64,000 nucleotides of DNA from Nitrospirota bacterium (GTDB taxonomy: Bacteria > Nitrospirota > UBA9217). The position numbers and the translations under genes were made by a program. The notes under the pieces are model-generated. The model was not told the DNA's origin. It searched no databases and worked only from the letters and a program-made list of their open reading frames with translations. Positions 18,983 through 63,918 of the stretch are shown piece after piece. The stretch covers positions 480,001 to 544,000 of the forward strand of contig CAWIYV010000014.1 of assembly GCA_963840455.1 (NCBI GenBank). The letters are read 5' to 3'. Within the stretch, counting starts at the first letter, position 1. Every line of letters starts with the position of its first letter.

Positions 18983-19200
18983 TTTTACCGCGAAGGCGCG
19001 AAGAACGCGAAGAAGGTCAAAGACCTCGATTATTTAGACCAAGGACCGAAAGTTCCTTACGCAACAGAGCCACTGAGTAACAAATGGATATCTCAGTTAA
19101 GGCTTTCTCTGAGAGCGCTGAACTCTCTGTGACAAAAGATGATGAGAAGAATGCTTTCTTTTTAGTATCCCCTCGCGACCTTCGCGCCTTCGCGGTTCAA
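18983..19200. repeat. Empty inverted-arm element (GxxExxY-associated type), copy A
   Basis: ttttaccgcgaaggcgcgaagaacgcgaag ... cctcgcgaccttcgcgccttcgcggttcaa; arms almost identical to those at 20161/20659. Confidence 0.85.
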
Positions 19201-19225
19201 GGGGCTTGGGTTTTTGTCGGCTAGA

Positions 19226-20077
19226 TCACGGATTCTGCAGTTTCGCGGCCTTGACCACGTGCTTCAGGAGTACCCGCGTAGTGACGGTGCCTACGCCGCC
19301 CGGCACCGGGGTGATGGCGCCGGCGACCTCTTTGGCCGGCTCCGTGTCCACGTCGCCGAACAGCTTGTCGCCTTCCACGTTGATGCCCACGTCCATGACC
19401 GTTGCCCCCGGCTTGATATAGTTCGGCGTGATCATCTTTGCCTTGCCGATGGCCGCAACGAGGATGTCGGCGCGGCGGCAGACCCCTGGCAGGTCCTGGG
19501 TCCGCGAGTGGCAGACGGTGACTGTTGCGTTCTCGCCCAAGAGCAGCATGGCCTGGGGCTTGCCCACCACCATGGAGCGGCCGATGACCACGGCCTCCTT
19601 GCCGCTCATCGGAATGGTGTAGAAGCGGAGCATCTCCATGACGGCCTGGGGCGTGGCGGGCGGGAATCCGGTCATATCGCCGGCCATGACCTTGCCGGCG
19701 TTCACGGGATTGAAGCAGTCGATGTCCTTTTCCGGCGCAAGAATATGCTTGACCACGTCCTCGCTGATCTGCTTCGGGAAGGGCCGCATGACGATGATGC
19801 CGTGGATGGCCTTGTTGCTGTTCCGCTCCTTCAGTATCTTGACGAACTCATCCTGGCCCGTGGTCCCCGGCAGCTGCTCGATGTCGCAGGCGATGCCGTT
19901 CTTTTCGGCCATCTTCTTCGCACTGTTCGCGTAGGCCAGCGAGTCCGGAGCATCGCCTACGATCATGATCTTGAGGGCGGGATTGATGCCTTTTCCCTTG
20001 AGGGCCTGAACCTCTGCCTGGATGTCCTGGTCCATCTTCTGCGCCACTTCTTTTCCCGTCAACAGTTTTGCCGCCAT
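19226..20077 (-). CDS. folD: Methylene-THF dehydrogenase/cyclohydrolase
   Basis: PEKDIDC, VVIGRSMVVGKP, DVGIN and ITPVPGGVG motifs. Confidence 0.95.
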   Translation of the reverse strand: MAAKLLTGKEVAQKMDQDIQAEVQALKGKGINPALKIMIVGDAPDSLAYANSAKKMAEKNGIACDIEQLPGTTGQDEFVKILKERNSNKAIHGIIVMRPFPKQISEDVVKHILAPEKDIDCFNPVNAGKVMAGDMTGFPPATPQAVMEMLRFYTIPMSGKEAVVIGRSMVVGKPQAMLLLGENATVTVCHSRTQDLPGVCRRADILVAAIGKAKMITPNYIKPGATVMDVGINVEGDKLFGDVDTEPAKEVAGAITPVPGGVGTVTTRVLLKHVVKAAKLQNP

Positions 20078-20160
20078 GGTCGCTCCTTTATAAACATGAT
20101 TTGCCGCATGCAGCTGAGATCATAAAGCAAAGATTGAAATCAACATCACAATCGTAAAGC

Positions 20161-20659
20161 TTTTACCGCGAAGGCGCGAAGAACGCCAAGGAAATCAGAA
20201 GGGAATTCTGCGTGCAATGAAATAGAATATCTACAGATTGTTGACCATTCTCTTGATGCCGTCTTTCATGCGGGGTACATTCCAGTTGAGTAAAAAACCC
20301 AATTTGCATTTTTTCATCTTCAAATAGGTCAGCAGCTGTGCTTCGTGTACCGGCAGGAGTTTCTCAACGGTCTTGTGTTCGACGATTACTGATCCTTGCA
20401 CGATCATATCTATTCGATAACCTGCATCAATGATAATTTTCTCATAGATAATCGCAAAACCACTTCGCACTCTACGGTTAATTCATCTTTATTCAGTTCA
20501 TACTTCATGCATTTCTGATATGCCGATTCCATCAAGCCGGGGCCTAAAATAGTATGTACTTTAATGGCAACATCAACGATCCTTTTAGCGATCTCTTCTA
20601 TATCCATAAACGGATTTCCGAGATTTACTCTTCGCGTCCTTCGCGCCTTGGCGGTTCAA
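20161..20659. mobile_element. Putative cassette: inverted arms enclosing a GxxExxY gene
   Basis: Left arm 20161-20190 and right arm 20630-20659 bracket an AT-rich gene placed between fchA and folD. Confidence 0.65.
20231..20607 (-). pseudogene. GxxExxY protein (PD-(D/E)XK nuclease-like), frameshifted
   Basis: GPGLMESAY in one frame and YRIDMIV..EHK..AQLLTYLK..GFLLNWN in another; a 1-nt loss near 20454 (ttg cg att) would join them. Confidence 0.85.
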
Positions 20660-20689
20660 GGTTTTACCGCAGCCCGGACACTGATTTTC

Positions 20690-21395: not shown

Positions 21396-21477
21396 TAAAA
21401 AATGCCCCCCTCTCCGACATTGCTGTCTTCAAGGGAGGCATTTCAGGGGAGGCGTATATAATCGCTATTTGAGATTA

Positions 21478-22760: not shown

Positions 22761-22878
22761 CAGGAGACAGCAGTCAGTAGACAGTAGACAGAAGAAGTTC
22801 ACGGAAGACAGGTGCAGTTGAAGACCCTGCGTATTCAGCCTCCTGTCTACGGTATGCTGTATTCCGTCTACTCGCTGT
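22761..22878. repeat. Paired heptamer repeat (cagtaga-type)
   Basis: cagtcagtagacagtagacag ... ctgtctacggtatgctgtattccgtctact inverse arm. Confidence 0.65.
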
Positions 22879-25181: not shown

Positions 25182-25214
25182 GGTGAAGAAGCAGGATAGA
25201 GGAGCCAGAATTGA

Positions 25215-25327
25215 AGCTCCCTGCAGCAAGCTGCAGGGAGCTTCGATCCTCAGGGTAATTATATTTATCCTGATCGCTCGCTAACTCCGCAGCAAGCTGC
25301 GGGTGGATGCGCTCGCTCCTGGATTCA
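25215..25327 (+). mobile_element. ~112-bp non-autonomous IS200/IS605-like element, copy 1
   Basis: TTGA|agctccctgcagcaagctgcaggg...ccgcagcaagctgcgg...gcgctcgctcctggattca. Confidence 0.75.
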
Positions 25328-25384
25328 GGAGTCAGGAGAAAGGTAGTCTCCTGGCAGGGGTCCCCTCTGGCTCCGGGCTCCTGG

Positions 25385-25948
25385 CTACTTTCCTCTCAGG
25401 CTCAGGTCCACGGCCGGTGTTGCACGGGTCGCTTCCGGGGCCTCAAAGTACTCTTCCGCGCGGAAGTTGAACAGCGAGGAGACGACGTTGTTGGGGAAGA
25501 CCTGGAGCGCCGTGCGGTAGTTCGCCACCAGGTCGTTGTAGAGCTGACGGGCGAAGGCGATGCGGTTCTCGGTGGAGGTGAGCTCCTCCTGGAGCTGCAA
25601 GACGTTCTGGTTGCTCTTGAGGGCCGGGTAGTTCTCCATGACCGCAAAGAGCTTGCCGAGGGCCTGGGTGAGCATGTTCTCGGCCTCGGCCTTGGACTGC
25701 GGCCCTGTTGCCCCCACGGCCTTTGCCCGCGCCGAGATCACCTTTTCGAGCGTGTCCTGCTCGAACTCCAAGGCCCCTTTGACCGTGGAGACAAGGTTGG
25801 GGATGAGGTCGTGCCGCCGGTTCAGCTGCACGTCGATCTGTTTCCAGGAACCCTGGACATCGTTCCGTTTTGCCACAAGACCGTTGTAGATCACGATCAG
25901 CCACAGGATGCCGAGAACCAGTACACCAAGTAAGAACCAGCCTACCAT
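25385..25948 (-). CDS. lemA: LemA family protein
   Basis: N-terminal TM, IDVQLNRRHDLIPNLV, ENYPALKS and ENRIAFARQLYN motifs. Confidence 0.95.
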   Translation of the reverse strand: MVGWFLLGVLVLGILWLIVIYNGLVAKRNDVQGSWKQIDVQLNRRHDLIPNLVSTVKGALEFEQDTLEKVISARAKAVGATGPQSKAEAENMLTQALGKLFAVMENYPALKSNQNVLQLQEELTSTENRIAFARQLYNDLVANYRTALQVFPNNVVSSLFNFRAEEYFEAPEATRATPAVDLSLRGK

Positions 25949-26902: not shown

Positions 26903-27037
26903 AGCTCCCTGCAGCAAGACTTCGGCGAGCTCAGTCGAGTCGCTGCAGGGAATCTTCGATCCTCAAGGTAGTGGTTTTATTCTAATCGCTCGCTAACCCC
27001 GCGCAGGCTACGGGGTTAGCGCTCGCTCCTGGATTCA
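26903..27037 (+). mobile_element. ~112-bp element, copy 2, with a 24-bp insertion in its left hairpin
   Basis: Same ends as copy 1; extra gacttcggcgagctcagtcgagtc at 26918-26941. Confidence 0.75.
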
Positions 27038-29344: not shown

Positions 29345-29462
29345 TTTACCGCAGAGATCGCTGAGAGCGCAGAGAAAATGCAACGGAGCAGGCGTGGCTT
29401 TCCTGCTGCAGCGTCAAGAACCAAAAGTTTTCTCAGCGTGCTCCGCCCCCTCTGCGGTGAAA
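29345..29462. repeat. Empty inverted-arm element, copy C
   Basis: tttaccgcagagatcgctgagagcgcagag ... ctcagcgtgctccgccccctctgcggtgaaa. Confidence 0.75.
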
Positions 29463-32703: not shown

Positions 32704-34125
32704 ATGTACGATCTGATCGGAGCATATCTTGCCCGGCTTACCGCACTCACTCCCCGGCCGATCTATCTTGTCGGCGGCTCCGTCCGTGACCTGCTGAGCG
32801 GGGCCCGGAACATCAAGGACATCGACCTCGTGATGCCGTCGGCCTCCGAGGATGTGGCGCGCACGTTCGCTGATCTCATCGGCGGGAGTTTTTTCTTCCT
32901 CGACGAGGAACGGAAGGTCACGCGGGTGATGAAGCGCGAAGCGGACGGGGCGATCCAGTTCGACTTCACGAACTTCGAAGGGCCGGACCTTCATGCAGAC
33001 CTTGCGCGGCGGGATTTCACGGTCAATGCCATGGCCATCGACCTCAAGGCGTTCCTCGCGCAGGGATCTCTGGACGGGCTCATCGACCTCTTCGACGGCA
33101 GGGGGGATGTCCGGCAAAAGCTGGTCCGGGTCGCAGACCCGAAGGTGCTCGACGACGATCCGCTCCGGCTCCTCCGTGCCGTGCGGTTCGCGGCGACCCT
33201 TGGCTTCAGCATCGAGAGAACGACCGCGGAGCATATCAAGGCCCGTGCAGACCTTATCACCCGGCCGTCACCGGAGCGCATCCGGGACGAGCTCTTCCAG
33301 ATACTCTCGGTCAAGGGCGCGGGCCGACATCTTCTGCTCATGGAGTCACTCGGCCTGCTCAAAATACTCCTGCCCGAACTGGAGCCGCTCAAGGACTTTG
33401 CTCCCGGAAAACACCATCTCTACGACATCTTCACACACTCCCTTAAGACAGCAGAGTACGTGGACAGCGTCATGGAGAACTTTCCCAACCTATCGCCAGG
33501 ACATGCCGGTACGGTCCTCGCGCATCTCGACGAAGAGCTCGAACAGTTCGTGACCCGAAAAGCCGCTCTCCGCTTCGCCTGTCTCCTGCACGACAATGCC
33601 AAGACCGAGACCTACAGCCGTGATGAAGCAGGGGACATCCATTTCTTCGGCCATGACACGATCGGCGCCGACAAGGCGCTGTTCATCTGCCAGCGGTTCC
33701 GGCTGTCGAACGACACATCGTCGGTGGTGTCCAGGCTCGTTCGGCATCATATGCGTCCGCTCAACCTGTCCGCACCCGGCGGTCCGAGCAGGAGGGCGCT
33801 GTACCGCTACTGCCGGGACCTCAAGGACGCCGTGCCGGAGAGCATCATCCTGTCCCTCGCCGACGCAAAGGCGACCTTGGAGGTCATGCCCGCAGAAGGA
33901 TTCACCGACACGCAGAAGATCTCGGGGCAGGTCCTCGAGTACTATTACGGCAAGTTCCTCAAGGCCGAAGCGAAGCCTTTCGTGACGGGCAAGGACCTTA
34001 TCGCGCGGGGGATGGAACCGGGGCCGAGCTTCCGCGAGGTCCTCGACGACATCAAGGAGCGGCAGGCAGAGGGGACGCTGAAGGACCGGCAGGAAGCGCT
34101 GAAGTATCTCGACACCTTGCCGTAA
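32704..34125 (+). CDS. CCA-adding enzyme/poly(A) polymerase family nucleotidyltransferase with HD domain
   Basis: YLVGGSVRD, DIDL, DLARRDFTVNA, DDPLRLLRAVRF and LLHDNAK motifs. Confidence 0.92.
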   Translation: MYDLIGAYLARLTALTPRPIYLVGGSVRDLLSGARNIKDIDLVMPSASEDVARTFADLIGGSFFFLDEERKVTRVMKREADGAIQFDFTNFEGPDLHADLARRDFTVNAMAIDLKAFLAQGSLDGLIDLFDGRGDVRQKLVRVADPKVLDDDPLRLLRAVRFAATLGFSIERTTAEHIKARADLITRPSPERIRDELFQILSVKGAGRHLLLMESLGLLKILLPELEPLKDFAPGKHHLYDIFTHSLKTAEYVDSVMENFPNLSPGHAGTVLAHLDEELEQFVTRKAALRFACLLHDNAKTETYSRDEAGDIHFFGHDTIGADKALFICQRFRLSNDTSSVVSRLVRHHMRPLNLSAPGGPSRRALYRYCRDLKDAVPESIILSLADAKATLEVMPAEGFTDTQKISGQVLEYYYGKFLKAEAKPFVTGKDLIARGMEPGPSFREVLDDIKERQAEGTLKDRQEALKYLDTLP

Positions 34126-34137
34126 CGGATATTCATC

Positions 34138-34409
34138 GAAGCTTCCTGCAGCAAGCTGCGGAGAATGCGCTTGCTCCTGGATTTAAGCTCCCTATAGCAA
34201 ACTGCGTGGAGCTTCGATCCTCAGGGTTGAACTAATTATTCTAATCGCTCGCTAACCCCGCAGCAAACTGCGGGGAATGCGCTCGCTCCTGGATTTAAGC
34301 TCCCTATGGCAAACTGCATGGAGCTTCGATCCTCAAAGTTGAACTAATTATTCTAATCGCTCGCTAACCCCGCAGCAAACTGCGGGGAATGCGCTCGCTC
34401 CTGGATTCA
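34138..34409 (+). mobile_element. Head-to-tail array of the ~112-bp element (1 deleted unit and 2 full units)
   Basis: Units start at about 34139, 34186 and 34298, with a 112-nt period between the full units; junctions ggattta|agctccc. Confidence 0.8.
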
Positions 34410-34433
34410 TCCTTTTATGGTTCGGGGTGTCAC

Positions 34434-36930: not shown

Positions 36931-38076
36931 ATGTGTGACAGGGAAAGCGGGCAGAACAGCTTGGGAATAAGGACGATCCCCGTGCAGCAGGCCGTTGGAT
37001 CTGTTCTTGCCCATGATGTGACCGAGATCCGGAAGGGCGAGTTCAAGGGTCCGGCGTTCCGGAAGGGCCACATTGTGCGGCAGGAGGACGTCTGTCATCT
37101 CCAGCGGCTCGGCAAGGATAACCTGTTCGTGCTGTCCCTGGGGCCCGATGATATGCACGAGGATGAGGCGGCTGTTGCGATCGCCCGGGCGCTGATGGGG
37201 GAGGGTGTCGCGATCAAGGGCGAGCCGCGCGAGGGAAAGATCACGGTCATTGCCGCGCGGGACGGCCTGCTGAAGATCGATGTCAATGCCCTCCGGGCGT
37301 TCAATATGCTGGGCGATGTGATGTGCGCAACGCTGCATACTAACACGGTCGTGAAGAAAGGGCAGGAGGTCGCCGGGACGCGGGCGATACCCCTGGTGGT
37401 CAAGAAAGCCGTGGTTGACAGGGCCGTGAAGATCGCACAGCAGGGTCCGGGAACCAGGGGCCAGGGCCCAGGGGTGCTGGACGTGAAGGAGATTCGGAAG
37501 CCCCGGGCCGGAGTGGTCATCACGGGGAATGAGGTCTACCACGGAAGGGTCAAGGACGAATTCGCGCCGATCATCGCGAAGAAGATCGAGGAGTACGGCG
37601 GGGAGATCGTGGGGACCTACTACGCGCCTGATGACGAGCGGTTCATTGCCGAGCGTTTACGGGAATTGCTGAATGCCGGCGCCGACCTGCTGATCACCAC
37701 CGGCGGCATGTCCGTGGACCCCGACGACGTGACGCGGTTCGCCATCAGGAGCCTGGGCGCCACGGACATCACCTATGGCTCGGCGGTCCTGCCGGGGGCG
37801 ATGGTGCTGGTTGCTTATCTAGAGACAAGAGAAGAGAGACGAGCGACAAGCGACAGCAAGCACTCTTCCCTCGTGCCTCGTTCCTCGTCACTGGTACCCA
37901 TCTTGGGCATTCCCGCCTGCGGCATGTATCACAAAACGACGGTGTTTGACCTTGTCCTGCCGCGCGTCCTTGCCGGCGAGCGGATCGGCCGCGAAGAACT
38001 CGCCGAGCTTGGCCACGGCGGTCTCTGCCTGCATTGTTCAGAATGCCGCTACCCGGTCTGCCCCTTCGGGAAGTAA
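36931..38076 (+). CDS. Molybdopterin-binding (MoeA/MogA-like) protein with a C-terminal Cys cluster
   Basis: AVGSVLAHDVTEI, ITGNEV, TTGGMSVDPDD and GHGGLCLHCSECRYPVCPFGK motifs. Confidence 0.88.
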   Translation: MCDRESGQNSLGIRTIPVQQAVGSVLAHDVTEIRKGEFKGPAFRKGHIVRQEDVCHLQRLGKDNLFVLSLGPDDMHEDEAAVAIARALMGEGVAIKGEPREGKITVIAARDGLLKIDVNALRAFNMLGDVMCATLHTNTVVKKGQEVAGTRAIPLVVKKAVVDRAVKIAQQGPGTRGQGPGVLDVKEIRKPRAGVVITGNEVYHGRVKDEFAPIIAKKIEEYGGEIVGTYYAPDDERFIAERLRELLNAGADLLITTGGMSVDPDDVTRFAIRSLGATDITYGSAVLPGAMVLVAYLETREERRATSDSKHSSLVPRSSSLVPILGIPACGMYHKTTVFDLVLPRVLAGERIGREELAELGHGGLCLHCSECRYPVCPFGK

Positions 38077-42539: not shown

Positions 42540-42639
42540 GCCACAGAGACAGCCGAGGACGCCGAGAGAAGCCGGACACCTTTTAGCAGGTATTTCTTAG
42601 CTCTCTCTGCCAGTGGCCTGCGGTCATGACCTCTGTGGC
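42540..42639. repeat. Empty inverted-arm element, gccacagag variant (copy D)
   Basis: gccacagagacagccgaggacgccgag ... ctctctgcc...gacctctgtggc. Confidence 0.6.
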
Positions 42640-43962: not shown

Positions 43963-44019
43963 ATGTTCAGTTGATCTTGTATGCTGAGCCTTAAACGTTG
44001 AACCTTCAACCTCTTTCCC

Positions 44020-47951: not shown

Positions 47952-48059
47952 CGAATCCAGGAGCGAGCGCATATCCTAGTCTTATTGGGAATAGCAATTG
48001 AATAGGATAAATATTACACCCTGAGGATCGAAGCTCCATTCAGTAATCTTCTGGGAGCT
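47952..48059 (-). mobile_element. ~112-bp element, degenerate copy, minus strand
   Basis: gaatccaggagcgagcgcat...cctgaggatcgaagctcc...gggagct|TAAA. Confidence 0.65.
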
Positions 48060-48140
48060 TAAACGCGCATGTCCGAGGCCGAAGGCCGAGTTTGTGCGGG
48101 CGGGCGGACGTGGCCTTAGACGGGACAGAAATTTCGTTGT

Positions 48141-48256
48141 CGCCCCCCTGCAGCAAGCTGTAGGGGAACTCCGATCCTCAAGGAAACGATCGTTATTCTA
48201 ATCGCTCGCGGATACCCCGCAACCTGCTGCGGGGAATGCGCTCGCTCCTGGATTTA
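48141..48256 (+). mobile_element. ~112-bp element copy
   Basis: ccctgcagcaagctgtaggg...gatcctcaagg...ttattctaatcgctcgc...gcgctcgctcctggattta. Confidence 0.75.
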
Positions 48257-48377
48257 GGACGCAAAAGGGATGTGCAAAAAAAGAATCTGTTCCTTTGTTC
48301 TGTGTCCTGCGCGACAGCGCGAGCCGGGCAGCAGAAAAAACGAATCTCTGTTTCGGGCGGCTTGGAGCCGGATAAGA

Positions 48378-50209: not shown

Positions 50210-50366
50210 TTTACCGCAGAGTACGCAGAGGGCGCAGAGGAGAAGCAGCAACAGAAGGAGTGAAATTGCGAAGGTTAGAAAGCGGGATACTGTCTTTAAG
50301 CGTTGTTGCCTTCCAGTTCCTTGATTTCAATAGATCTCAGCGATCTCTGCGGGCTCCGCGGTGAAA
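50210..50366. repeat. Empty inverted-arm element, copy E
   Basis: tttaccgcagagtacgcagagggcgcagag ... ctcagcgatctctgcgggctccgcggtgaaa. Confidence 0.8.
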
Positions 50367-52458: not shown

Positions 52459-52748
52459 GATATGGTTCTCCTTTCGACAAAAATGGCCGATCAAATCAGC
52501 CTGCACACTATAGCGAAGACGGGCCGATTTGTCAATAAGTTCGCTGTGACAGGAGCCGGGATGCAGGGGCTGGGGCCAGGGGGCAGGGGAGCGGGGACAG
52601 AATTCCGGAGAGGTCGCTATTCTTTGTTGTTATCCTGACTCCTGGCTCCTGACTACTGATTTGTGAGTTCAGACTCCTGTCTTTAAACTTTTTCCCTTGA
52701 TTTCTTGAGGCTGATAGATTAGATTATACCCGCTTGTCAGCCAGTGAC

Positions 52749-52824
52749 GGGCGAGTAGCTCAGCTGGGAGAGCACCGCGTTCGCAATGCGGGGGTCGAGG
52801 GTTCGAATCCCTTCTCGTCCACCA
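52749..52824 (+). tRNA. tRNA-Ala (anticodon CGC)
   Basis: 76-nt cloverleaf: GGGCGAG/CTCGTCC acceptor stem with G3:U70, CCGCG-TTCGCAA-TGCGG anticodon arm, GTTCGAATC T-loop, encoded CCA. Confidence 0.97.
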
Positions 52825-53050: not shown

Positions 53051-53325
53051 GACTAATCGTTGATAATTACAGCGCGATCAACTTCCTGAAGTATTGATTC
53101 GGTTACATAAACGGATGGTGTAAGTCTCAACCAGAATCTTGTTTATCCGCCTGCTCCTTTTCGCTACGTCCTGCAATACCCCAAAAATACCCCATCGTAA
53201 TTTCCTCTGTTCTGCTATATTACAATTAAGTATTACATCGAACAACTTTCCTAGATGCACAAAATATTACTATTGTAGAATCCGCGTGTATCTTGCATTT
53301 AGTTTCTTTTAAGGATTAGGTTTTC

Positions 53326-53404
53326 CCGACAAAGCTAAACCCGTCGTGAGATGGGGACGGAAAGCAACGGGTCTTGGAATGCAAGACGGCCGGGCTGCCG
53401 AAGG
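53326..53404 (+). ncRNA. Cyclic di-GMP-I (GEMM-I) riboswitch aptamer
   Basis: CGACAAAGCTAAACCCGTC-GTGA-GATGGGGACGGAAAGC..GGGTCTT...AAGACGGCCGGGCTGCCG matches the P1/P2/P3 consensus. Confidence 0.88.
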
Positions 53405-55221: not shown

Positions 55222-55328
55222 TTCGCAATGCGGGGGCTGAGGGTTCGAATCCCTTCTCGTCCACCAATCTTACAATCACCTACAACCCTGCCGCAATTTC
55301 TTTTACACCCGACGGTACTAATTCTGTG
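55222..55328 (+). repeat. att repeat: tRNA-Ala 3' half plus about 60 bp of downstream flank
   Basis: ttcgcaatgcggggg..gagggttcgaatcccttctcgtccaccaatcttacaatcacctacaaccc.gccgcaatttc matches 52780-52888. Confidence 0.92.
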
Positions 55329-56694: not shown

Positions 56695-57627
56695 GGTAAT
56701 TATCCCCTTAGAGGGACCAACTGTATACTTGGAGAAACACCTTCCAGGCACAGGAGGCCTCTATGGGGCTGTACGACTATCGATACTATCTTGCTGATGA
56801 GAATGAATGCCGCAAGCTTCTTCATGAGCTTCGCTGGCCTGGCGGCATAGAATGCCCACGCTGTGGCCATGAGTTTATCTGGAAGCTTGGAAGAAAAGAT
56901 CGCTATAAAAACAAATGTAGACGCTGTAAATATAAGTTTACAGAAACGTCGGGCACGATCTTTGAGAAGACCAGAACGCCTATCTCCAAATGGATCTGTG
57001 CCATCGGGCTCTTCAAGGTTGGGATTTCTGCCAACCAGCTGAAGGATGAGATTCGGGTCACATACAAGGCTGCCTGGCAGATGCTTGTCAAGATCAGAAA
57101 GGCCATTAAGGGTGACCATCTCACCAGCCAGCTGTCCGGCCACATTGAAGTCGATGAAGCCTACTTTGGCGGCCGACGCAAGGGGAAGCGCGGCAGAGGT
57201 GCTGCCGGGAAAACACCGGTCATCGGTATCATCCAGAGAAACGGGGATGTCAGAACGATTGCCATCCCCAATGTGAGAAGCAAGACGCTTCAGGCCCTTG
57301 TGAAGGAGCATGTTGAGGCAGGCAGCACGATCTATACTGACAACTATATCGGCTATAGAGGCCTTGATAATAGCGGCTTTTCTCATAAACTTGTCAATCA
57401 TCAGAAAGCTTTTGTATCTCGCAAAGGGCACCACACGAATTCGATTGAAGGCTTCTGGCGGTTATCGAAACACAAGCTGTATGCTCGATACCATAAAATC
57501 TCTAAAAAGCACTTGCCGTCCTATTTGGCAGAGTCGGAGTTCAAGTATAATGAGCGTTCACACCCTGATTTCATAAAACTGGTGCTCACGAAGCTCATAT
57601 TTCAGTCCCTCTAAGGGGATAATTACC
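56695..57627 (+). mobile_element. IS1595-family insertion sequence, 933 bp
   Basis: Perfect 23-bp TIRs ggtaattatccccttagagggac; 8-bp target duplication aacaaaaa (56687-56694 and 57628-57635). Confidence 0.95.
56763..57614 (+). CDS. IS1595-family DDE transposase
   Basis: RWPGGIECPRC Zn ribbon, IEVDEAYFGG, IYTD, HTNSIEGFW and YLAESEFKYN motifs. Confidence 0.95.
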   Translation: MGLYDYRYYLADENECRKLLHELRWPGGIECPRCGHEFIWKLGRKDRYKNKCRRCKYKFTETSGTIFEKTRTPISKWICAIGLFKVGISANQLKDEIRVTYKAAWQMLVKIRKAIKGDHLTSQLSGHIEVDEAYFGGRRKGKRGRGAAGKTPVIGIIQRNGDVRTIAIPNVRSKTLQALVKEHVEAGSTIYTDNYIGYRGLDNSGFSHKLVNHQKAFVSRKGHHTNSIEGFWRLSKHKLYARYHKISKKHLPSYLAESEFKYNERSHPDFIKLVLTKLIFQSL

Positions 57628-58025: not shown

Positions 58026-58278
58026 GGTTTATACCTCTCTTTCCATACAGCTTCATTGCTTGATTAGAGTATAGCACCGAACTGGCTATTGTCAAGAAAG
58101 TGCGCAACTAATTGACATTGGATGGAATATATAAGGTTTTAGGGGGAGGGGAGCAAAAGCGTCAAAACAGTGTCAATACAACCTTGTGTAAATTTTCTGC
58201 AAAGGGGATGATTGTCCATCCAAAGTATTAGCCATTGCATGGTCATCTCTTGACGCCTTTGTAGTTCGATGATTTAAT

Positions 58279-58386
58279 TGAATCCAGGAGCGAGAGCATT
58301 CCCCGTAGCTTGCTGCGGGGTTCGTGAGCGATTAGAATAAATAGTACTACCTTGAGGATCGAGGATTCAGCTTGCTGCAGGGAGCT
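58279..58386 (-). mobile_element. ~112-bp element copy, minus strand
   Basis: tgaatccaggagcgagagcattccccg...gcttgctgcagggagct|TCAA. Confidence 0.75.
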
Positions 58387-58486
58387 TCAATCATAATGCA
58401 GGCGGGCAGGCAGCAAATTACGAATCAATGCCTTGCAGGGAACATATGCAGGGTTTTTTCATTGGCATCAGATGAGGAGGATGGTT

Positions 58487-61480: not shown

Positions 61481-61510
61481 GATGAAAACCCATTCAATAT
61501 TCAGGATTGG

Positions 61511-61621
61511 CGCTCCCTGCAGCAAGCTGCAGGGAATCTTCGATCCTCAGGGTTGGTTATTATCCTAATCGCTCGCTAGCCCCGCGGCAAGCTACGGGGA
61601 ATGCGCTCGCTCCTGGATTCA
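61511..61621 (+). mobile_element. ~112-bp element copy
   Basis: gctccctgcagcaagctgcagggaatcttcgatcctcagg...gcgctcgctcctggattca between the two permease genes. Confidence 0.78.
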
Positions 61622-61692
61622 CCATTCAAGAGTAAGATGCCGATGCCGTCATGATCATATTGAATTTTGAACATTGAATCTTCGGTCCGTAA

Positions 61693-63804: not shown

Positions 63805-63918
63805 ATTGAGGACCAGGGGTCAGGGTACAGGGGTTAGGAGCCAGGGGTCAGGAGAGTCATCGAGAAGACAATTCTTCCAGTTCCTGTATTCTGGCTTCTG
63901 ACTTCTGGCTCCTGTTCT

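What the first reader, a model, noticed from the sequence alone, without database searches (positions are those of the whole stretch)
18983..20659. GxxExxY nuclease gene enclosed by 9-nt-periodic inverted arms, with empty copies across the window: candidate undescribed mobile element
Seen: the AT-rich GxxExxY gene between fchA and folD is bracketed by ttttACCGCgaaggcgcgaagaacgccaag (20161) and cttcgcgtccttcgcgccttgGCGGTtcaa (20659). Nearly identical arms in the same orientation enclose only non-coding DNA at 18983-19200. The same layout (ttt-ACCGC, three 9-nt units, variable spacer, inverse arm, GCGGT-gaaa) recurs at 29345-29462 and 50210-50366, with a gccacagag variant at 42540-42639. All copies are intergenic, several lie inside operons, and I see no target duplication. 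Known: GxxExxY proteins are PD-(D/E)XK-fold proteins of unknown function. Inference: an autonomous/non-autonomous pair, analogous to RAYT/REP, in which the nuclease recognises or spreads the arms.
Basis: partly seen in the sequence, partly recalled or inferred. Interest (0 to 1): 0.75.

Follow-up and report, generated by a model that had tools for sequence, protein, structure and literature searches.

The report
Nuclease cassette with triple nine-base arms
A tiny DNA-cutting-type gene of unknown function sits between short mirror-image repeats that also litter the gaps between genes as empty copies and come and go between related bacteria, which points to an undescribed kind of selfish mobile DNA.

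Summary
All five arm pairs are in the window and exceed chance. The GxxExxY gene (TIGR04256/PF13366, 40% GC) is frameshifted. It is absent from the fchA-folD gap in 39 of 39 Nitrospirota relatives. That gap instead holds changing families of 6-9-nt periodic arms, or none. A close relative has an empty 9-nt element where the window has none. The same three-unit arm encloses GxxExxY genes in Bacteroides, Bernardetia and Sphingomonas, and relatives lack the cassette. Flank inverted-repeat scores pass threshold for 6 of 10 GxxExxY genes versus 9 of 377 control genes. There is no target duplication and no RNA-strand pairing bias. The protein folds as a minimal Cas4/RecB-like PD-(D/E)XK core with near-invariant catalytic residues. 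A sister system pairs 7-nt arms with four-helix-bundle (23S IVS/Avd-like) genes. Best reading: a REP/RAYT-like selfish cassette whose nuclease recognises its arms and spreads them by cut-and-repair. Mobility and association are shown; the nuclease's role is inferred. Ten literature searches found no description.

The parts
20161..20190 (.). arm at the 3' side of the gene: T-rich end, ACC, then three CGCGAAG-type cores at 9-nt period
20231..20607 (-). GxxExxY / PDDEXK_3 gene, 125 codons, 40% GC, broken by a frameshift near codon 52 (about 20453-20455)
20630..20659 (.). arm at the 5' side of the gene (TTGAACC-type end), inverse to 20161-20190
20662..20684 (.). decayed remnant of an older CCGCAG-type arm just outside the cassette; relatives L010, L011 and L042 keep such an arm in this gap
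   Evidence: judged by eye
18983..19200 (.). gene-less element of the same arm subfamily (29 of 30 identical at one arm), between convergent omp and folD genes
19062..19135 (.). decayed inner arm pair nested in the 18983 spacer
29345..29462 (.). gene-less element, CCGCAGAG subfamily, aroC-aroK gap
42540..42639 (.). gene-less element, GCCACAGAG subfamily, degenerate, coxB-ctaB gap
   Evidence: missed by the stricter paired detector
50210..50366 (.). gene-less element, CCGCAGAG subfamily, between co-oriented genes
22765..22860 (.). 7-nt-period inverted arm pair (GTAGACA type) of the sister system, hspR-moaE gap
25317..25390 (.). 7-nt-period inverted arm pair (CAGGAGT type), sister system
37819..37892 (.). 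7-nt-period arm pair, sister system
52566..52661 (.). 7-nt-period arms, sister system
63836..63915 (.). 7-nt-period inverted arm pair, sister system

Best explanation
It is a small selfish DNA cassette. Its ends are two inverted arms, each a T-rich tip plus three tandem CRCNRAG cores at 8-9-nt period. The full form carries a 125-aa GxxExxY nuclease; far more copies are gene-less. Shown: the cassette is gained and lost at single gaps, lands just after stop codons in transcribed gaps, nests inside older copies, replaces other arm families, leaves no target duplication, and its gene decays. Inferred (likely): the three cores are repeated binding sites for the cognate GxxExxY protein. Inferred (about even): because a PD-(D/E)XK enzyme hydrolyses DNA but cannot join strands alone, it cuts at or beside arms and host repair copies or pastes an arm-bounded unit. 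That would be homing-like conversion at sites that already hold arms and illegitimate repair at new sites. It would give the untidy junctions, nests and hybrid arm pairs seen. Gene-less copies arise by internal deletion and by mobilisation in trans.
For: Gene absent from fchA-folD in 39 of 39 relatives (gap 36-284 nt; no tblastn hit in 44 Nitrospirota loci, 680 kb). 34 of 40 such gaps hold some periodic-arm family, and the family differs between species. Divergent promoter gaps rarely hold arms: 2 of 34 and 4 of 28. L009 (97% FchA) has an extra empty element of the window's subfamily. Cassettes fill the radA and fabD gaps of B. finegoldii and S. parapaucimobilis; Parabacteroides distasonis, Phocaeicola massiliensis and S. 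paeninsulae lack them. Flank inverted-repeat score of 26 or more: 6 of 10 GxxExxY genes, 9 of 377 control gene copies. Arm-codable peptides in terminal extensions of family representatives: 20 of 71 N-terminal and 14 of 42 C-terminal, against 4.2 expected from shuffles for each. Proteins with CACGGATT/GGATT/GGACT repeats form a separate clade (bootstrap 89, 10 proteins). E27, D67, E77, K79, Q91 and Y95 are conserved in 122-123 of 122-124 aligned representatives. The model (pLDDT 95) is closest to Cas4, lambda-type exonucleases, AdnAB and Hjc. Gemmatirosa has near-identical empty units at 35 and 30 places in two replicons. In 232 kb it has 15 arm clusters, with nests and related spacers. Direct repeats at the ends are no longer than chance (2.8 vs 2.9 nt, 15 elements).
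Against: No binding, cutting or movement was tested. The window's copy and one Gemmatirosa copy are frameshifted. Four of 10 GxxExxY genes fail the flank score, and two of the six that pass lie between complete units rather than inside one pair. The sister 7-nt system carries a four-helix bundle with no nuclease fold yet behaves the same way, so a shared outside enzyme is possible. No pair of strains close enough to fix the exact element ends was found; the L009 insertion includes 30-40 nt beyond each arm. The arm-family patterns were written after seeing these sequences, so its shuffle control is lenient. The 377 control genes are orthologues from 45 loci and are not independent. Wrong-orientation hits were 7 (N) and 8 (C), so the C-terminal excess is modest. 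No fold match reached Foldseek E < 0.001; the best Z was 8.2 (rmsd 3.2, 99 aligned).
Confidence: 0.55

Rival explanations
1. The arms are the mobile unit but are moved by another enzyme, from the host or from another element. GxxExxY is a specific passenger that helps the unit persist, for example by binding the arms or penalising their loss, without catalysing the move.
For: The 7-nt family shows the same behaviour with a non-nuclease cargo (7 of 11 four-helix genes pass the flank score). Arm turnover is everywhere, while 44 loci (680 kb) held 13 paired 9-nt elements and no GxxExxY gene. A lone hydrolytic nuclease cannot do strand transfer (established knowledge).
Against: Catalytic residues are near-invariant. 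Protein clade tracks repeat type. One cargo family goes with one unit length across phyla. A low-GC ORF screen of the fetched loci showed no other cargo inside 9-nt pairs.
Confidence: 0.2
2. The element moves through RNA. The arms pair in the transcript, RNase III cuts out the hairpin as it does for 23S rRNA intervening sequences, a borrowed reverse transcriptase copies it, and the cargo acts as cofactor (Avd-like bundle) or nicks the target (GxxExxY, as the R2 endonuclease does).
For: Elements sit in transcribed gaps and avoid divergent promoter gaps. They fold as long stems. The Coxiella 23S IVS has heptamer repeats, a 28-bp terminal stem and RNase III excision (PMC4990558, passages). An Azospirillum locus that reads as 23S rRNA (my recognition, unannotated) has the same 7-nt arms. 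PF05635 is homologous to DGR Avd (PMC10053308, passage). R2 endonuclease domains appear among weak fold hits.
Against: No excess of G-U pairs on the transcribed strand (111 vs 119, p = 0.64, in 50 of 137 sequences that passed the stem threshold). In 10 of 13 elements an arm matches another element's arm better than its own partner (a best-of-many comparison, biased upward). No reverse transcriptase was seen beside any cassette. Placement may reflect selection alone.
Confidence: 0.15
3. The arms are host regulatory hairpins (terminators, mRNA stabilisers, processing sites) or slippage-made repeats that arise repeatedly, and the gene landed among them by chance.
For: They lie just after stop codons and inside operons. 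Intergenic heptamer repeats have been read as regulatory or G-quadruplex elements (PMC4679880 and PMC4692102, passages).
Against: Unrelated arm families replace each other at one gap among species about 90% identical in fchA-folD. The same three-unit arm and tip recur in four phyla together with the gene. There is no RNA-strand bias.
Confidence: 0.07

Closest known systems
REP/REPIN with RAYT (REPtrons), and TIR/TIRYT elements
   Same: An enzyme gene flanked by the repeats that also occur as many gene-less inverted pairs and clusters in intergenic DNA (PMC3733652, passages; PMC3116915, search listing only). Avoidance of divergent gaps and lack of target duplication are recalled as REP traits.
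   Different: The protein is PD-(D/E)XK, not an HUH tyrosine transposase. Arms are tandem 9-nt cores with no GTAG or CGTC tag and no internal palindrome. The gene occurs at changing sites and in several copies per genome (3 places in one replicon).
ORF-bearing 23S rRNA intervening sequences (S23p / 23S_rRNA_IVP, PF05635)
   Same: A small ORF inside a terminal inverted repeat built of short tandem units; sporadic presence; decaying ORF; mobility proposed but unexplained (PMC4990558, passages). Here the same gene family sits in 7-nt inverted arms outside rRNA genes.
   Different: The finding has 9-nt units and a nuclease-fold protein, and lies in mRNA gaps, not in rRNA.
Intergenic heptamer repeats: TAACTGA (Beggiatoaceae, Cyanobacteria, Bacteroidetes), GGGAATC (Xanthomonas), cyanobacterial STRR
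   Same: Short tandem units, 2-6 copies, intergenic, next to stop and start codons, inside operons, patchy across phyla; MacGregor suspected horizontal spread with 'no mechanism evident' (PMC4679880, abstract and passages; PMC4692102, passages; STRR recalled).
   Different: In the passages read, these papers name no partner gene; a find for 'four helix', 'intervening' and 'PDDEXK' in PMC4679880 gave 0. The 9-nt family is not among them.
MITE / IS pairs with terminal inverted repeats
   Same: Imperfect left and right ends, an autonomous copy and shorter gene-less copies.
   Different: No DDE transposase, no target duplication, tandem-unit ends, untidy junctions.
Free-standing PD-(D/E)XK homing endonucleases and the R2 restriction-like endonuclease
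   Same: Same nuclease superfamily, used for selfish spread by cutting and host repair or priming (established knowledge; I-Bth0305I and R2 are weak fold hits).
   Different: No intron, no separate DNA-binding domain, no fixed target gene, and repeat-built ends.

Membership tests
GxxExxY / PDDEXK_3 protein family | HMM match above curated cut-off (TIGR04256, PF13366) | tested here: met
   both pieces pass TIGR04256 (49.8 and 81.8 bits, cut-off 35); the intact homologue passes PF13366
PD-(D/E)XK nuclease, RecB/Cas4-like | alpha/beta core with conserved E, D, ExK and QxxxY motifs | tested here: met
   motif names recalled
PD-(D/E)XK nuclease, RecB/Cas4-like | nuclease activity | not testable with these tools
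   needs a bench assay
REP/RAYT | HUH/Y1 tyrosine transposase | tested here: not met
   family and fold are PD-(D/E)XK
REP/RAYT | repeat tagged by GTAG or CGTC with an internal palindrome | tested here: not met
   arm consensus is a T-rich tip plus three CRCNRAG cores
REP/RAYT | enzyme gene flanked by repeats that also form many gene-less inverted pairs in intergenic DNA | tested here: met
MITE / IS with TIRs | terminal inverted repeats | tested here: met
MITE / IS with TIRs | target-site duplication | tested here: not met
   mean longest flanking direct repeat 2.8 nt vs 2.9 for mismatched flanks, 15 elements; exact ends are uncertain
MITE / IS with TIRs | DDE, serine or tyrosine transposase in the autonomous copy | tested here: not met
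   the only ORF is PF13366; 20 long representatives showed no transposase domain
23S rRNA intervening sequence | located in an rRNA gene | tested here: not met
   Rfam finds only a tRNA and a riboswitch in the window
23S rRNA intervening sequence | terminal stem excised by RNase III | not testable with these tools
   stems are predicted; cleavage untested
homing endonuclease gene | cuts the element-free allele of its own site | not testable with these tools
   needs cleavage mapping
known structured RNA family (Rfam 15) | match at gathering score | tested here: not met
   no match at any arm site
anti-phage defence gene (PADLOC 2.0) | match to a defence model | tested here: inconclusive
   only weak Cas4 hits, E 8e-4 and 5e-3

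The most novel reading that the evidence does not exclude
GxxExxY/9-nt cassettes and four-helix-bundle/7-nt cassettes are two branches of one unrecognised class of tiny mobile elements with periodic inverted arms. The class would account for the unexplained intergenic heptamer repeats of many phyla and for ORF-bearing 23S rRNA intervening sequences. In the 9-nt branch a 125-aa nuclease, whose specificity changes with the arm unit, would be the smallest known mobilising enzyme and would work without any transposase chemistry.
Probability: 0.35. Interest if true: 0.92.

Novelty: new variant of a known kind. Interest (0 to 1): 0.76.

Why it matters
It gives a testable role to a very large family of unknown function: 21,301 clusters at 50% identity match the profile at E <= 0.001, 7,681 at 1e-10 (weak hits may include other nucleases). 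It offers a candidate mechanism for two old puzzles: where intergenic heptamer repeats come from, and how ORF-bearing rRNA intervening sequences spread. In this Nitrospirota lineage most copies of some operon gaps are rebuilt by these elements, so they shape transcript structure. A 125-aa nuclease with a cognate repeat site would also be a compact tool candidate.

Tried and rejected
Programmed frameshift: rejected, because the window and Gemmatirosa copies break at different codons with no shared slippery run. RNA-level selection on the stem: no strand bias. Target duplication: none. A family-free periodicity detector found only part of the pairs and was replaced by motif patterns. A short arm query against plasmids gave only chance-level hits. 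No GxxExxY match in 50,697 phage records. The cassette has no match in the E. coli collection. No solved structure by sequence. The first small tree had a mistranslated row and was redone. My notes listed the Pseudanabaena four-helix locus L084 as inverted; it has heptamer arrays on both sides in direct orientation. My notes gave 11 of 13 for the arm-concordance test; the count is 10 of 13. Rows left out: L046 (labelled Dehalococcoidales) from junction counts; L050 and L052 (frameshift-rich assemblies) from the tree and strand test. Four-helix plasmid loci: 8 of 40 records fetched, picked by hand for taxonomic spread. Not checked: orthologues of the coxB-ctaB and 50210 gaps and a genome-wide GxxExxY flank survey (the single genome scan went to FchA); metagenome and viral contig collections; supplements of all papers.

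Full report
Observation. The window is 59% GC; FchA relatives label it Nitrospirota. The arms described are all present. An 18-nt arm pattern matches 11 times, always within the five reported sites, against 1.89 +/- 1.32 in 100 shuffles. A three-core pattern yields 16 arms and 6 inward pairs against 2-13 arms and 0-1 pairs in 20 shuffles. The enclosed gene is TIGR04256 in two frames, 40% GC against 61-62% for its neighbours, and one base short near codon 52 relative to a 96%-identical intact protein. Of the 120 nearest homologues, 21 start late at varied positions, from decay or contig ends. Rfam has no family for the arms.

Anatomy. Over 30 paired Nitrospirota arm rows the consensus is a T-rich tip (T at -5 in 28 of 30, C at -1 in 28 of 30) followed by three CRCNRAG cores with 1-2 free bases between them; nothing is conserved further out. 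The same build occurs in Gemmatirosa, Bacteroides and Sphingomonas. Within a subfamily the two ends are distinct: in 10 of 13 elements an arm resembles another element's arm more than its own partner (a best-of-many comparison). Direct repeats at the ends are at chance level. The elements fold as long stems, but G-U pairs are not enriched on the transcribed strand (111 vs 119; 50 of 137 sequences passed the threshold). This favours arms as repeated protein-binding sites in DNA over selected RNA stems, without excluding the latter.

Presence and absence. One genome scan with FchA returned 74 loci, 44 of them Nitrospirota. In 39 relatives with both genes the fchA-folD gap is 36-284 nt and holds no GxxExxY gene; no locus has one anywhere. 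Of 40 gaps including the window, 34 match one of twelve arm patterns; aroC-aroK 15 of 27, hspR-moaE 20 of 32, lemA-htpX 15 of 26. The divergent gaps ccdA-fchA and aroC-mqnB match in 2 of 34 and 4 of 28, and the short hspR-ccdA gap (16-41 nt) in 0 of 33. These patterns were written after reading the sequences, so the shuffle rates of 0-13% understate chance, but the printed junctions show the repeats plainly. Pairs of species 92% or more identical in fchA-folD share the arm type; the five species of the window's clade show four types (labels by eye). Some gaps hold hybrids with a 7-nt left arm and a 9-nt right arm (L010, L042). L009, with 97% FchA identity, carries an empty element of the window's subfamily upstream of fchA that the window and four other relatives lack. 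Its contig ends inside a matching arm after fchA, so whether it shares the gene is unknown. A stricter detector finds 13 paired 9-nt elements, all gene-less, in 680 kb of Nitrospirota loci and none in 448 kb of 30 other loci.

Other phyla. All 8 plasmid-collection records with a GxxExxY match were fetched. Inward CRCRRAG-type arms enclose the gene in B. finegoldii (radA gap), Bernardetia and S. parapaucimobilis (fabD-fabG gap). Parabacteroides distasonis and S. paeninsulae have short plain gaps there, and Phocaeicola massiliensis has an unrelated gene. Two Bacteroides species share an empty element in the gmd-fcl gap. In 232 kb of a Gemmatirosa replicon there are 29 arms in 15 clusters, some nested, many with related spacers. 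Its two GxxExxY genes each lie between complete hairpin units, the second of a different repeat type. A unit query finds 35 and 30 places in two replicons. Treponema has single CACGGATT units on each side; Fusobacteria, Persicobacter and Prevotella have looser repeats that do not enclose the gene. By one flank score, 6 of 10 GxxExxY genes pass against 9 of 377 non-independent control genes. In a 10-protein tree the CACGGATT/GGATT/GGACT carriers group apart (bootstrap 89). Independently, terminal extensions of the 150 best family representatives are arm-codable in 20 of 71 N-terminal and 14 of 42 C-terminal cases against 4.2 expected each; wrong-orientation hits are 7 and 8.

Protein. The profile matches 21,301 cluster representatives at E <= 0.001. 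E27, D67, E77, K79, Q91 and Y95 are nearly invariant among 124 top representatives, a set biased towards the profile. The deep-alignment model has pLDDT 95. Its best Foldseek hits are Cas4 proteins, lambda-type exonucleases, AdnAB and Hjc (E 0.005-0.04); the wide search gives Z 8.2 (rmsd 3.2, 99 aligned) for a restriction-like fold and 7.4 (rmsd 4.5, 102 aligned) for Cas4 SSO0001. It is a bare nuclease core with no extra binding domain. A survey lists PDDEXK_3 as function unknown with 'multiple transfers' (PMC3424549, one table row).

Sister system. Four-helix-bundle genes (PF05635) sit inside inverted 7-nt arms in Nitrospirota L016, in Anabaena, Nostoc, Picosynechococcus, Geminocystis and Gemmatirosa, and in an Azospirillum locus that reads as a 23S rRNA insert. 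Seven of 11 pass the flank score; one has direct arrays, and three have one-sided or weak repeats. The Coxiella IVS paper reports heptamer repeats and a 28-bp terminal stem around such an ORF, RNase III excision, and an open question on mobility (PMC4990558, passages). PF05635 is homologous to DGR Avd (PMC10053308, passage) and occurs at scattered rRNA insertion sites in CPR bacteria (10.1101/2024.02.27.582315, passages).

Mechanism. Shown: gain, loss, nesting, replacement, gene decay, gene-arm association, and no duplication. Inferred: the three cores are binding sites for the cognate protein. More weakly inferred: the nuclease cuts at the arms and host repair completes the move, converting arm-bearing sites and sometimes seeding new ones. 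I put this at 0.55. The passenger model (0.2) gains from the non-nuclease sister cargo. The RNA route (0.15) gains from placement and the IVS precedent, but lacks strand bias or a linked reverse transcriptase. Host regulation (0.07) does not explain turnover.

Prior work. Ten searches of the open-access library used the family names and accessions, four-helix and IVS terms, REP terms, heptamer terms and literal arm sequences. They found no paper linking GxxExxY to repeats or mobility. One GxxExxY mention concerns a gene beside a CRISPR reverse transcriptase (10.1101/2021.01.26.428298, passage); the other, in an algal virus genome paper, was seen only as a listing. Heptamer repeats are described without a partner gene in the passages read (PMC4679880, PMC4692102). 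Subscription journals and supplements were not seen, so prior description is not excluded.

Verdict. The feature is real and is part of a wider, apparently undescribed family of mobile cassettes. It works like a REP/RAYT pair but fails that family's defining tests, and those of MITEs and rRNA IVSs. Novelty: new variant of a known kind, possibly a new class. Interest 0.76.

Noticed in passing
window 25211-25320, 26931-27037, 34123-34414 (three tandem 112-nt copies), 48018-48261, 58278-58392, 61503-61626: A separate ~112-nt intergenic repeat family built of two short palindromes with a GC-rich hairpin core; resembles IS200/IS605- or REP-type ends (recalled), no Rfam match, often adjacent to 7-nt arms.
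   Followed up: partly
window 37450-37475, 43991-44012, 61657-61678: Further single 7-nt periodic arms of other unit types; partners not sought.
   Followed up: no
window 56763-57614: IS1595-family (ISXO2-like) transposase gene.
   Followed up: no
window 53325-53403 and 52749-52821: c-di-GMP-I-GGC riboswitch and a tRNA gene; a 107-nt repeat overlapping the tRNA 3' end recurs at 55222-55328 around low-GC genes, suggesting an integrated island.
   Followed up: no
L083, L084, L089: Four-helix-bundle cassettes with heptamer arrays sit inside CRISPR-cas operons (cas6-cas4, cas10-cmr3); such insertions may explain why PF05635 is scored as a cas-associated family.
   Followed up: partly
L073 5540-5845; L042 and L050 fchA-folD gaps: A GIY-YIG gene next to a GTCATTCC-type palindrome, and the same palindrome nested within arm pairs; possibly a third small-gene/repeat pair.
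   Followed up: no
L011, L013 mqnB gap; L020, L036, L041, L049, L073: A 6-nt-period (GTAACG-type) inverted repeat family at the same gaps, with no partner gene identified.
   Followed up: partly
proteins P0241-P0246 and others: Tandem double GxxExxY proteins of about 280 aa, and read-through fusions such as RNase H plus GxxExxY (P0361).
   Followed up: partly
L040 1340-2270: A 912-nt aroC-aroK gap holding two small unknown ORFs beside a 7-nt arm.
   Followed up: no
window 21400-21450 and relatives: A conserved hairpin-rich stretch upstream of fchA, nearly invariant in six close relatives, possibly a cis-regulatory RNA below the Rfam threshold.
   Followed up: no
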